This document shows, one piece after another, positions 31,110 to 36,692 of a stretch of DNA of 64,000 nt. How positions within the stretch are numbered: position 1 is the stretch's first letter; every line of letters begins with the position of its first letter. Below the pieces are notes generated by a model. It ran no database searches, had not been told where the DNA came from, and saw only the letters and a list, made by a program, of their open reading frames with translations. The translations under genes were made by a program, and so were the position numbers. The DNA lies in the NCBI RefSeq assembly GCF_030013205.1, contig NZ_CP122648.1; one strand, written 5' to 3'. The stretch is from Escherichia coli. Lineage in GTDB: Bacteria; Pseudomonadota; Gammaproteobacteria; Enterobacterales; Enterobacteriaceae.

Positions 31110-32095
31110 GTAGCAGGGCAAGATTACGAAAGCCCGCTCCCCGCAAGGACTGACGTCAGGTAGTTTCTGTCCATGGCTGCCCTTTCCATTCAAACGTGAA
31201 ATCAATAAGTTCATCAGGGACATCGCAAACAATATGAAGACGGATTTCTTCTCTGCCGTGACTTTTTTCACTAATTGCGTAACTGTCATGCTCTGGATTA
31301 TTTAATTCTTTCAGTGGGAATTTTTCCTCAAAGGCTTTATTAAGCCGCCCCTGATTTCCTTTTACAGCGAATAAATAATCACCGCCCTGTTTTTGTATCT
31401 TCTCTGCGATATCTTTCTGGCAACCCATCGCATCAGTTGTGATAATTTTTCCTTTAATATCCAGCATGTTAAGAAGTTCAGGGATAGCTGTGATCTCATT
31501 GGATTTCTTATCCGTCCTGATCTGTCCGATGACAAGACTGTGCATTGTTGAGAACGCACTAATGACATGAATCGCTCCCCTGCGGCGACTCTTGTCATAA
31601 GAATGCCGGAGCGTTTTTCCATCAATTGCAATAACGTCTTTATCATCTGAAGAATGGCAGTCACGCATCCAGTTAATAAAGCACTCGTGAAATTTTGAAG
31701 GACTGATACAGGATACAACTCTGGCGATGGTATCGTGAACAGGAATACCATTTTAAAAATCACCATATTGTTTTAAAAAATCGAGATGTGTTTCCCCAAA
31801 ATCCTCTATATCTTCCCAACCGTCTGCACAAGAAATAACGGCACAAATAGTCAACAGTAGAATATCCGACAATTTATGTTCCACTTTCCTGGCATGTCTG
31901 TAATCGGAAGTAATAGAAATATGTTCCATCAATTTTTTAAGTTCCATTTTGTTCTCCTTAATTATGTAAGGAGTATTTGATCATGTATAAGCAATAAAAA
32001 AGAGCTTCAGGTAATGAGGAATATCTCAATTTTTAAACATAAAATGCGAATTGTTTAGTACAAAAAAGCAGCGTTACGTGATCTTTCCCTGGTGA
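31110..32095 (-). mobile_element. H-repeat (ISAs1-family) element copy 1, degenerate
   Basis: terminal sequences shared with copy 2 (gcagggNaagattacgaaagcccgc at one end, gatctttccc at the other); internal deletion of about 385 bp plus a TAA nonsense codon. Confidence 0.8.
31156..31947 (-). pseudogene. H-repeat-associated (ISAs1-type) transposase, disrupted
   Basis: ORF track fragments 31753..31947 and 31156..31668 same frame; ...YGDF then TAA where copy 2 has GAA; C-terminus replaced after FTFEWKG by deletion. Confidence 0.8.
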
Positions 32096-32545
32096 CAGTC
32101 ACGGCAGCGGAATCGATCATGTCCTTTTGGGTTCTTCCCGTGACGGTAAACCTGAACGGACTGGCAACGGGGGCAATGAAGGTTAACAGTGACCATGAAG
32201 GAACCTTAAAAGCGAGTATTATACCACTCATTCAACTAATTGGAGGCATTACCCATCCCTTTTAACACGATCTTTTCCATATAAAACAGGAATAAGTTGC
32301 TCCATGTTGTAATTTTTATATTTTTCATGCAAAAACAACTCCCTGCTTTCTTTTCGTCTTTTATTCACATCAATAATTTTCATATCAACTATCTCATTTT
32401 CTTTGCTATCTTATCTTTTGAATGGCGTGAATGCTTGCCCCCCATGCTTTCATTGTGCTTTTTGCCTCTAACGGTGAATATTTACCTTGTGAAATTAATT
32501 CCTCAAGCATCTCACATCTGCTCTAGTAAAGAAATAGTTCATATT

Positions 32546-32995
32546 CTATAGTTTAATGACCTCGCCAAGCTTACCCCCCTCATCGGCATAAAAAGCACTC
32601 AAATACAGATCACCCTTATTTTCTTTTGTAAACTCAAATTCCTCTATTAGAGAGTAATGTTCATATGTAGAGCGATAGGTTAAAACCACAACATTATGAT
32701 TAATTACATTACTCGCCAATAAGTTTATTTTATTTAATCTTCCAAACACCTGTTTTTTTTCTTTCATTATCGTTATAAAAACATCTTCCGATGTTGCTTT
32801 TTTAAATTCACTGCTTGTGTCAGAGTAGATTTTGTCCACTTCATTCTGATTGTATAGTTTTTGAATGATAACAACTTTATCCTGCGCAATTTTTCTAATA
32901 TCAGCATCATTCTTTATTACATTATGACTAATGTCTTTCCCCAAAAACATAAAAACCACTACTGCTACAATAACAATACTCACTTTTATTTTCAT
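32546..32995 (-). CDS. candidate immunity protein for orphan Rhs tip 2; N-terminal signal peptide or membrane anchor
   Basis: 149 aa, MKIKVSIVIVAVVVFMFLG hydrophobic N-terminus; AT-rich; start 4 bp from upstream toxin stop. Confidence 0.55.
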   Translation of the reverse strand: MKIKVSIVIVAVVVFMFLGKDISHNVIKNDADIRKIAQDKVVIIQKLYNQNEVDKIYSDTSSEFKKATSEDVFITIMKEKKQVFGRLNKINLLASNVINHNVVVLTYRSTYEHYSLIEEFEFTKENKGDLYLSAFYADEGGKLGEVIKL

Positions 32996-32998
32996 AAA

Positions 32999-33780
32999 TT
33001 AATATCCTGCCAATTGTGATAAACACCATAAACTTTGCGAACAGGTAAGTTCGCCAACAAAACCACCAAATCCGGGACCAATACTCACTGTGCCTGAATT
33101 TTTTCCGTCTGCATCCCTAACCCCTGCAATGGAATATTTTTTCAAATAACCACCTGTAGATATATAACCTTTAGTAAGATACTCCCCCGGAGAGATTTTT
33201 GCTTGCGATGCTGTACCTGACAAAGAAATACCGATTGCAGAACCAACACCATTATGTTCACACAAAGTATAATACATACAAACATCCAGATTAGCTGGAG
33301 CTCTGTCATTCCCCCCAACTGTTGCTCCCACAGCAAAACTAGCCCCTGTAAATTCGTCACCATTAAAACTTATATCAATAGATCCTGAACCAGGGAAAGG
33401 AGTAGTATAAATTTTAGAAGTCACATCCGAAGGAGCGTTATTATTATACATAGAGTTATTCATAAATTCGCCCCAATTGCTATATAATCCCAAAGCATCT
33501 GTGTATGCAACAGGATTCAACGGATACTGATAAAAATTCCATCCCCACTTCAGCCCAATCGGATCATGAGTGATATACCGCCCCTGCAGCGGGTCATAAT
33601 AGCGGTGGCGGTTGTAATACAGGCCGGACTCCTCATCATACTGCTGCCCCGGCAGGCGGACAAGCTGCTGCAGCTGATGCGGGTTCTCTTCATTCAGCAG
33701 GTTGCCCCACTCATCGTATTCTGCGCACCATTCTGTTGCCCCTTCCGTGCTGATAAGCGCCAGCGGCAGGTTATTCGGTT
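32999..33780 (-). CDS. orphan Rhs C-terminal tip 2 (core-end remnant plus glycine-rich toxin domain), no ATG/GTG start
   Basis: minus-strand frame open from about 33780 to stop at 32999; encodes ...[73 protein letters not shown]...[13 protein letters not shown] then a divergent 160-aa domain; ORF track lists the TTG-initiated part 32999..33520. Confidence 0.75.
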
Positions 33781-36495: not shown

Positions 36496-36692
36496 GGGGC
36501 TTTAACTTCCCTTTATTCATAAACTCATGGATATGGTGATCAACGGTGGTCTGATGGAGGCGCAGAGCCTGAGTAATCATGACTGAATTTCAGCCTTCAG
36601 AAGCCAGAAAAATGGCTTTAATACAATCGCAGCCCCGCTTTTCACAACATTATGCTTATAATATGAAAAATATCTTGCCTTGCATCTTTGTG

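What the first reader, a model, noticed from the sequence alone, without database searches (positions are those of the whole stretch)
32096..32545. AT-rich non-coding stretch between H-repeat copy 1 and the tip-2 immunity gene
About 450 bp of low-GC sequence with no ORF of 60 codons or more on either strand, between two coding blocks. In Rhs loci such stretches are often eroded remains of older cassettes, or carry promoters/terminators for the immunity genes.
Basis: inference. Interest (0 to 1): 0.25.

Follow-up and report, generated by a model that had tools for sequence, protein, structure and literature searches.

The report
Dead toxin, immunity and IS1 stumps
This 450-bp gap in an E. coli Rhs toxin locus is genomic debris: the tail of an old toxin gene, the first 43 codons of its immunity gene, and a broken piece of an IS1 insertion sequence, so it is ordinary.

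Summary
The window is the rhsC locus of a porcine ETEC/O139 E. coli lineage, next to ybgA-phrB-dtpD. The stretch is real but is not one uniform AT-rich spacer.

Read on the minus strand, downstream of the 149-aa DUF3887-like immunity gene, it contains:
- 23 bp of spacer.
- 32522-32389: the last 44 codons of an Ntox34-type Rhs toxin gene, frameshifted at a G6 run. It is 79% identical to the C-terminus of a Salmonella Rhs-Ntox34 protein, and the Pfam Ntox34 score is above the cut-off.
- A 5-nt gap.
- 32383-32254: the first 43 codons of a YibA-like HEAT-repeat immunity gene.
- 32253-32088: the left end of an IS1-family element (terminal inverted repeat plus the InsA zinc ribbon). The terminus of H-repeat copy 1 (32092) cuts it off.

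Homology to E. albertii, Escherichia sp. E4742 and a metagenome contig (94-96%) stops exactly at the IS1 end. In those relatives the sequence continues into a frameshifted ~286-aa HEAT gene and then ybgA.

I found no excess of promoter-like or terminator-like sites and no Rfam match. Both families and the process are already known. Interest is low.

The parts
31181..32092 (-). Context: H-repeat copy 1, an ISAs1/ISEc1-type element with a ybfD-like transposase pseudogene. Its outer terminus is at 32092.
   Evidence: Aligns at 94.5% to the K-12 ybfL/ybfD H-rpt copies. It ends at the same base as H-rpt copy 2 (36498) and the K-12 copy. PGAP annotates it as an ISAs1 family transposase pseudogene.
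32088..32253 (-). Left-end fragment of an IS1-family insertion sequence. The terminal inverted repeat starts GGTAATGCC at 32253, followed by the first ~36 codons of insA (ATG at 32196). The H-rpt terminus truncates it, and both sequences share the 5 bp CCTGG (32088-32092).
   Evidence: Pfam Zn_ribbon_InsA gives E 6.7e-22 and 77.4 bits. The fragment is 93-94% identical to the left end of intact IS1-family copies, e.g. in strain SWHEFF_58. It aligns base-for-base with that copy and with the K-12 IS1A inverted repeat. Matches occur in 5014 of 5426 E. coli genomes, median 4 places per genome. PGAP calls it an IS1 family transposase pseudogene.
32254..32383 (-). 5' stump (43 codons) of a YibA-like HEAT-repeat immunity gene (Imm-HEAT). 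The annotated 44-aa ORF (32383->32249) takes its last codon and its stop codon from the IS1 inverted repeat.
   Evidence: 55% identical over 44 aa to the N-terminus of Salmonella Imm-HEAT P0005 (E 2e-16). It aligns to residues 1-43 of P0004, P0005 and YibA. Homology to E. albertii, E4742 and L006 ends exactly at 32254. In those relatives it continues into a ~286-aa HEAT gene, which is 37% identical over 266 aa to K-12 YibA (E 8e-58) and matches Pfam HEAT_2 at 6.6e-15.
32384..32388 (-). 5-nt toxin/immunity intergenic spacer (TTGAT).
   Evidence: An intact Salmonella Rhs-Ntox34/Imm-HEAT pair has the same 5-nt spacing (L019). The sequence is read directly.
32389..32522 (-). 3' stump of an Ntox34-type Rhs toxin domain gene: the last 44 codons plus the stop. 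It reads SRCEMLEELISQGKYSPLEAKSTMKAWG|GKHSRHSKDKIAKKMR*, where | marks a -1 frameshift.
   Evidence: The frame-corrected peptide is 79% identical over 42 aa to the C-terminus of Salmonella Rhs-Ntox34 (E 3e-23). It is 57% identical over 37 aa to the K-12 RhsA C-terminus (E 8e-12). Pfam PF15606 Ntox34 scores 26.4 bits (cut-off 25) over model positions 42-80 of 80. tblastn places the two frames at 32522-32412 and 32472-32392. At DNA level it is 73% identical over 242 bp to L019, running across the toxin end, the spacer and the immunity start.
32438..32443 (-). Homopolymer run (G6 on the minus strand) where the toxin stump changes frame. The run has 7 G in L006 (in frame) and 8 G in E. albertii and E4742.
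   Evidence: Gap columns occur only in the relic, at 32444, 32318 and 32401.
32523..32545 (-). 23 bp between the stop codon of the DUF3887-like immunity gene and the first base with homology to Ntox34. The junction between the newer tip-2 cassette and the older cassette lies here.
   Evidence: Translations: homology to the Salmonella toxin begins at 'SRCEM', directly after an in-frame stop codon.
32546..32995 (-). Context: 149-aa DUF3887-like gene with a signal-peptide-like N-terminus, the presumed immunity gene of tip 2.
   Evidence: Weak Pfam DUF3887 match (5.9e-5, below the cut-off). PGAP names it a DUF3887 domain-containing protein. Homologues in Buttiauxella and metagenome contigs travel with the tip-2 toxin but without the relic.

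Best explanation
The stretch has no function of its own. It is a mosaic of three dead gene fragments that record the history of this rhsC locus.

Shown by the analysis:
(1) 32522-32389 (minus strand) is the 3' end of an Ntox34-type Rhs toxin gene.
(2) 32383-32254 is the start of that toxin's cognate YibA-like HEAT-repeat immunity gene, 5 nt downstream as in intact pairs.
(3) 32253-32088 is the left end of an IS1-family element. It sits exactly where homology to the uninterrupted relatives stops.
(4) That IS1 piece is itself cut off at the terminus of H-repeat copy 1.

Inferred history:
- An ancestral Escherichia Rhs at this locus carried an RhsA-like Ntox34 tip. Its Imm-HEAT gene was the last gene before ybgA.
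- A newer tip (tip 2) and its DUF3887-like immunity gene replaced the Ntox34 domain. The left crossover was in the conserved Rhs core. The right junction was an illegitimate one, 134 bp before the end of the old toxin gene. This left the old immunity gene without a toxin.
- The unused immunity gene then decayed by frameshifts. It is broken in every close relative examined.
- In the porcine ETEC lineage an IS1-family element inserted at codon 43/44.
- The rest of IS1 and the rest of the HEAT gene were then deleted up to the H-repeat. This happened either by H-rpt insertion followed by recombination between H-rpt copies, or by illegitimate joining at the shared CCTGG.

The 44-aa ORF that PGAP annotates is the truncated immunity start, closed by a stop codon from the IS1 inverted repeat.
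For: - Locus identity and annotation.
- Homology at 96% (E. albertii L008/L010; E4742 L018) and 94.7% (metagenome contig L006) runs from the Rhs core through tip 2, the immunity gene and the AT-rich stretch. It ends at 32254, next to the IS1 inverted repeat.
- In those relatives the sequence continues into a frameshifted HEAT gene and then ybgA.
- Toxin stump.
- Immunity stump.
- Intact Ntox34/Imm-HEAT pairs with the same layout: K-12 rhsA-yibA and Salmonella L019. Zhang et al. 2012 (PMC3482391) list Imm-HEAT as the immunity partner of Ntox34 on RHS proteins.
- IS1 end.
- H-rpt junction.
- Against E. albertii and E4742, indels fall only in the relic: 3 gap columns in 292 bp against 0 in 1052 bp of tip plus immunity.
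- The tip-2/immunity pair occurs elsewhere (Buttiauxella L023, L026) without the relic, so the relic is not part of that cassette.
- 36 other complete E. coli genomes keep only the 3' ~280 bp of the same HEAT gene, between ISEc1 and ybgA. This supports an ancestral position of the gene next to ybgA.
Against: - The order and mechanism of the events are inferred, not observed. No E. coli genome with the allele before the IS1 insertion was found among 5426 complete genomes.
- No target-site duplication can be checked, because the other IS1 end is gone.
- Substitution identity is about the same in the relic (96.6%) as in the flanking genes (95.8-96.8%). Only the indels argue for relaxed constraint.
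- The Ntox34 Pfam score uses a frame-corrected translation, is only just above the cut-off, and covers only half of the model.
- Absence of expression was not tested.
Confidence: 0.9

Rival explanations
1. The stretch is a regulatory region carrying a promoter or terminator that serves the neighbouring immunity gene or genes.
For: It is AT-rich and lies between coding blocks. One weak promoter-like site (9 of 12 matches) sits at 32092-32120 on the + strand.
Against: - All neighbouring genes are on the minus strand, and the stretch lies downstream of the tip-2 immunity gene. It therefore cannot hold that gene's promoter.
- Over 31900-33100 the scan found 2 promoter-like sites against 5.0 +/- 2.0 in shuffles.
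- No terminator-like site lies inside the stretch.
- There is no Rfam match at E <= 1.
- The whole AT-rich part is accounted for by homology to coding sequence.
Confidence: 0.05
2. The annotated 44-aa ORF (32383->32249, WP_001389504.1) is a genuine small-protein gene.
For: PGAP annotates it. It is 100% conserved in 17 ETEC genomes, and AST215 has the same protein accession. It keeps the start codon of the ancestral immunity gene.
Against: - It is 15% of a ~286-aa repeat protein.
- Its last codon and its stop codon come from the IS1 inverted repeat.
- It has no Pfam match.
- The homologous ORFs in relatives have different lengths (56 and 69 aa) because of different frameshifts.
- Its conservation only reflects the clonal relatedness of the 18 genomes.
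Confidence: 0.04
3. The 84-aa ORF on the + strand (32297..32551) is a real gene, so the stretch is coding.
For: It is the longest ORF touching the interval. It is intact in the window, in AST215 and in L006.
Against: - It has no family match.
- It lies antisense to recognisable toxin and immunity coding sequence.
- It is hydrophobic and of low complexity, as expected from reading AT-rich DNA.
- In E. albertii and E4742 it is broken by a frameshift and stop codons.
- 25% of shuffles of the interval give an ORF of 60 aa or more.
Confidence: 0.01

Closest known systems
E. coli K-12 rhsA-yibA (Rhs with an Ntox34 C-terminal toxin domain plus a HEAT-repeat protein, YibA)
   Same: The gene order is the same: toxin C-terminus, then a short gap, then a HEAT-repeat gene. 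The window's toxin stump is 57% identical over 37 aa to the RhsA C-terminus. The reconstructed HEAT gene of the relatives is 37% identical over 266 aa to YibA.
   Different: Only the last 44 codons of the toxin (frameshifted) and the first 43 codons of the immunity gene survive here. The locus is rhsC, not rhsA.
Salmonella enterica VgrG-Rhs(Ntox34)-Imm-HEAT locus (L019; protein P0005)
   Same: This is the closest intact pair found. Identity is 79% over 42 aa for the toxin end and 55% over 44 aa for the immunity start. The 5-nt spacer is identical in length, and DNA identity is 73% across the junction.
   Different: The Salmonella pair is intact and linked to T6SS (vgrG upstream). The window copy is a stump.
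Orphan rhs-CT/rhsI modules (Poole et al. 2011, PMC3150448)
   Same: Both are displaced toxin/immunity material lying downstream of the current tip, interspersed with IS elements.
   Different: Typical orphan modules begin with retained core sequence encoding the DPxGL motif and keep a complete CT and immunity gene. This relic lacks the core and the N-terminal ~2/3 of the toxin domain, and it lacks 85% of the immunity gene.
IS1-family insertion sequences
   Same: It has the terminal inverted repeat and the InsA zinc-ribbon N-terminus. It is 93-94% identical to intact copies in other E. coli strains.
   Different: Only ~166 bp are present, against the 768 bp of K-12 IS1A. It has no insB and no right end. 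Its sequence is clearly diverged from K-12 IS1A.

Membership tests
Ntox34 toxin domain (Pfam PF15606) | Match to the family profile above the curated cut-off | tested here: met
   The frame-corrected 44-aa peptide scores 26.4 bits against a cut-off of 25 (E 7.9e-6), but covers only model positions 42-80 of 80.
Ntox34 toxin domain (Pfam PF15606) | Complete domain in an intact reading frame at the C-terminus of an Rhs (or other carrier) protein | tested here: not met
   Only the last 44 codons are present. An in-frame stop lies directly upstream at 32525-32523, and there is a frameshift at the G-run at 32438-32443. It is derived from the family but is not a functional member.
Ntox34 toxin domain (Pfam PF15606) | Conserved WxCxH motif (Zhang et al. 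2012, PMC3482391) | tested here: not met
   The Salmonella toxin has AWGCKHS and RhsA has AWNCRHS. The window reads AWG|GKHS after frame correction, so Gly replaces the Cys and the motif spans the frameshift.
Imm-HEAT / YibA-like immunity protein | HEAT-repeat domain detectable by profile (Pfam HEAT_2/HEAT) | tested here: not met
   The window's 44-aa product has no Pfam match. The gene reconstructed from relative L006 does match HEAT_2 at 6.6e-15.
Imm-HEAT / YibA-like immunity protein | Sequence homology to proteins encoded directly after Ntox34 toxins | tested here: met
   55% identical over 44 aa to P0005 (E 2e-16). It aligns to residues 1-43 of P0004, P0005 and YibA. The 5-nt spacing after the toxin stop is preserved.
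Imm-HEAT / YibA-like immunity protein | Full-length protein (~280-290 aa) able to neutralise the toxin | tested here: not met
   Length was tested: only 43 codons remain before the IS1 end. Neutralising activity cannot be tested with these tools.
IS1-family insertion sequence | Terminal inverted repeat and InsA zinc-ribbon N-terminus | tested here: met
   PF03811 scores 77.4 bits. The inverted repeat aligns with K-12 IS1A and with an intact IS1-family copy.
IS1-family insertion sequence | Complete element (insA-insB, both inverted repeats, target-site duplication) | tested here: not met
   Homology to the intact copy stops at 32088-32092, where the H-rpt terminus begins. No second end exists, so a target-site duplication cannot be assessed.
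Orphan rhs-CT/rhsI module | Begins with retained Rhs core-end sequence (DPxGL-encoding) followed by a complete CT and immunity gene | tested here: not met
   No core sequence lies between 32546 and 32522. Only 23 bp separate the preceding immunity gene from the toxin stump.
Sigma-70 promoter / intrinsic terminator region | Excess of consensus sites in the appropriate orientation | tested here: not met
   Over 31900-33100 there are 2 promoter-like sites against 5.0 expected. No terminator-like site lies inside 32096-32545. Actual transcription cannot be tested here.

The most novel reading that the evidence does not exclude
The truncated 44-aa ORF may still be translated. It is the N-terminal HEAT helix pair of the old immunity protein, with a stop codon supplied by the IS1 inverted repeat. 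The product could act as a micro-protein, for example by binding Ntox34-type toxins or their partners, rather than being inert. More generally, the retained toxin-less immunity gene may once have been selected because it protected against kin still armed with Ntox34.
Probability: 0.03. Interest if true: 0.35.

Novelty: already known. Interest (0 to 1): 0.08.

Why it matters
It matters little in itself. The stretch is a clean, fully resolved example of how Rhs loci accumulate debris. One tip replacement left behind the tail of the old toxin gene and its immunity gene. Frameshift decay, an IS1 insertion and an H-repeat-associated deletion followed.

It has practical value for annotation. The PGAP 'hypothetical protein' WP_001389504.1 and the related 56-, 69- and 85-aa 'hypothetical proteins' in E. 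albertii and other E. coli strains are fragments of one YibA-like Imm-HEAT pseudogene.

It also suggests that the ancestral Escherichia rhsC-locus Rhs carried an RhsA-like Ntox34 tip.

Tried and rejected
- My first guess from memory was that the zinc-ribbon ORF was K-12 ybfQ. This was wrong. K-12 ybfQ overlaps a partial H-rpt copy, and the K-12 rhsC locus has no counterpart of 32093-32545.
- Pfam scans of the raw small ORFs (44, 34+44 concatenated, and 84 aa) found nothing. The toxin stump became recognisable only after intact homologues showed the correct frame.
- A distant DNA search of E. coli with the AT-rich part alone found only the same 18 genomes.
- The promoter/terminator scan and the Rfam search were negative.
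- The repeat search gave only short matches at chance level.
- I compared substitution rates between the relic and the flanking genes to look for relaxed constraint. Identities are indistinguishable, and only the indels differ.
- I looked for an E. coli allele from before the IS1 insertion. None exists among 5426 complete genomes.
- I tested whether the relic belongs to the tip-2 cassette. It does not, because the cassette occurs without the relic in Buttiauxella and metagenome contigs.

Full report
**Where the window comes from.** The 601 bp around the finding are 100% identical to 17 complete E. coli genomes, all from pigs (ETEC, O139:H1). They are 99.6% identical, over the 75% of the query that is covered, to one human isolate, AST215. 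The neighbouring genes are dtpD, phrB and ybgA, followed by an Rhs element, so this is the rhsC locus of K-12 read in reverse orientation. All genes of the Rhs element lie on the minus strand, so the stretch is read from 32545 down to 32096.

**Checking the observation.**
- The boundaries are accurate. Position 32545 abuts the stop codon of a 149-aa DUF3887-like gene (32546-32995). Position 32096 lies 4 bp beyond the outer terminus of H-repeat copy 1 at 32092. H-repeat copy 2 (ending at 36498) and the K-12 copies share that same end.
- GC is 38.2% against 50.9% for the window, but the stretch has two parts. GC is 47.1% in 32096-32265 and 32.9% in 32266-32545.
- No ORF of 60 codons or more lies wholly inside the interval. 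However, an 84-aa ORF on the + strand (74 aa from its first ATG) spans 32297..32551.
- The lack of long ORFs is what shuffled sequence gives. The median longest ORF in shuffles is 48 aa, the same as observed.
- PGAP already annotates an IS1-family pseudogene and a 44-aa hypothetical protein here.

**The GC-richer third is an IS1 fragment.** The 40-aa ORF at 32196->32074 matches the InsA zinc ribbon (PF03811, E 6.7e-22). The segment 32087-32255 matches 5014 of 5426 E. coli genomes at 90-95% identity, with a median of 4 places per genome. One such match is the left end of an intact IS1-family element with a programmed frameshift. Alignment with that copy and with K-12 IS1A places the terminal inverted repeat (GGTAATGCC...) at 32253. 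Homology to IS1 stops at ...CACCAGG, where the H-repeat terminus begins. The five bases CCTGG (32088-32092) are shared by both sequences.

**The AT-rich two thirds are the stump of an older toxin/immunity pair.** The AT-rich part occurs in only 18 of 5426 E. coli genomes. A protein search with its conceptual translation found short ORFs in E. albertii and in a metagenome contig. In E. albertii, a full-length Rhs carries the same tip 2 and the same 149-aa immunity gene. These are followed by this stretch, a 154-160-aa HEAT_2 protein, and then ybgA. Escherichia sp. E4742 has the same arrangement as an orphan module. DNA homology between the window and these loci (94.7-96.1%) runs from the Rhs core to 32254 and stops there, one base from the IS1 inverted repeat.

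Three-frame translation of the relatives shows one decayed gene of about 286 codons broken by different frameshifts. The version reconstructed from L006:
- matches Pfam HEAT_2 (6.6e-15);
- is 37% identical over 266 aa to K-12 YibA, the gene that follows rhsA (E 8e-58);
- has intact homologues in E. fergusonii (P0004, 57%) and Salmonella (P0005, 51%).

The window's 44-aa ORF corresponds to residues 1-43 of these proteins. It is 55% identical to P0005 (E 2e-16). Its last codon and its stop codon come from the IS1 repeat.

In Salmonella, P0005 starts 5 nt after an Rhs protein that ends in an Ntox34 domain. The last residues of that toxin are SRCEMLEELIANGKFTALEAKSTMKAWGCKHSRQSKDKITKR. The window reads SRCEMLEELISQGKYSPLEAKSTMKAWG, then shifts frame at a G6 run (32438-32443) and continues GKHSRHSKDKIAKKMR, stop, 5 nt, ATG. 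The evidence for the frame-corrected peptide is:
- 79% identity over 42 aa to the Salmonella toxin (E 3e-23);
- 57% identity over 37 aa to the K-12 RhsA C-terminus (E 8e-12);
- a Pfam Ntox34 score of 26.4 bits (cut-off 25) over model positions 42-80 of 80;
- 73% DNA identity to the Salmonella locus over 242 bp, running across the toxin end, the spacer and the immunity start.

Zhang et al. 2012 list Imm-HEAT as the immunity partner of Ntox34 on RHS proteins (PMC3482391). Homology to the toxin starts directly after an in-frame stop codon, 23 bp downstream of the DUF3887-like gene. No Rhs core sequence precedes it.

**Signs of decay and of history.**
- Against E. albertii and E4742, the 1052 bp of tip 2 plus immunity gene contain no indels. 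The 292-bp relic contains 3 gap columns. The G-run has 6, 7 or 8 G in different lineages. Substitution identity does not differ between the segments.
- The tip-2/immunity pair occurs in Buttiauxella and in metagenome contigs without any Ntox34 or HEAT sequence downstream. The relic is therefore a residue of the previous occupant of the locus, not part of the incoming cassette.
- No complete E. coli genome has the whole HEAT gene. 36 genomes keep only its 3' ~280 bp, between an intact ISEc1 and ybgA. This fits an ancestral position as the last gene before ybgA.
- In AST215 only 11 bp of the IS1 repeat remain, followed by an IS256-family segment.

**Interpretation.**
- Shown: the stretch is an Ntox34 3' stump, then an Imm-HEAT 5' stump, then an IS1 left-end stump, ending at the H-repeat terminus.
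- Inferred: tip 2 and its immunity gene replaced an RhsA-like Ntox34 tip through an illegitimate right-hand junction inside the old toxin gene. The orphaned immunity gene decayed. An IS1-family element then inserted at codon 43/44. The rest was deleted up to the H-repeat, either by H-rpt insertion followed by recombination between H-rpt copies, or by joining at the shared CCTGG.

**Rivals.**
- A regulatory role is unsupported. The stretch lies downstream of the immunity gene, there is no excess of promoter-like or terminator-like sites, and there is no Rfam match.
- The 84-aa ORF on the + strand is antisense to recognisable coding sequence, has no homologues, and is broken in E. albertii and E4742.
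- The 44-aa ORF is a truncation product.

**Verdict.** The Ntox34, Imm-HEAT, IS1 and ISAs1/H-rpt families are known, and so is the process of tip displacement and IS-mediated erosion in Rhs loci (Poole et al. 2011, PMC3150448). Interest is low.

Noticed in passing
L022 5001-5281 (E. coli 88-3493), and 35 other complete E. coli genomes: These genomes keep only the 3' ~280 bp of the same YibA-like HEAT gene, annotated as an 85-aa hypothetical protein. It is wedged between an intact ISEc1 (H-rpt) and ybgA. No complete E. coli genome has the whole gene. Different lineages keep different stumps of one ancestral gene.
   Followed up: partly
L014 6001-6867 (E. fergusonii-type metagenome scaffold): An intact 288-aa Imm-HEAT gene (P0004) stands alone between nikR and a GntR-family regulator gene. 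From memory, rhsB follows nikR in K-12; this was not checked here. No Rhs gene is present in the locus shown. It looks like an orphan immunity gene kept without a toxin.
   Followed up: no
L002 4037-4770 (E. coli AST215), equivalent to window 32093-32242: In the human isolate AST215 the IS1 fragment is reduced to 11 bp of its inverted repeat. About 680 bp annotated as an IS256-family transposase replace it. The IS1 insertion therefore predates the split between AST215 and the ETEC lineage.
   Followed up: partly
window 32438-32443: The length of this homopolymer G/C run differs between lineages: 6 here, 7 in L006, 8 in E. albertii and E4742. Each length puts the toxin stump in a different frame, as expected for slippage in unconstrained DNA.
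   Followed up: yes
window ~36500-36628 (L001 10501-10629): H-repeat copy 2 is also flanked by a fragment of another insertion sequence, annotated as an IS630-family transposase pseudogene. Both H-repeat copies in this locus therefore abut IS debris.
   Followed up: no
L003 8303-8682 (K-12 ybfQ region): K-12 ybfQ ('inactive transposase') overlaps a 380-bp partial duplicate of the H-repeat 5' end. This duplicate is 91.6% identical to window 31711-32091. It is unrelated to the IS1 fragment found here.
   Followed up: no
L023 2757-3185 (Buttiauxella sp.): In Buttiauxella a second, diverged paralogue (30% identity) directly follows the tip-2-type immunity gene. This gives a tandem pair of DUF3887-like immunity genes.
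   Followed up: no
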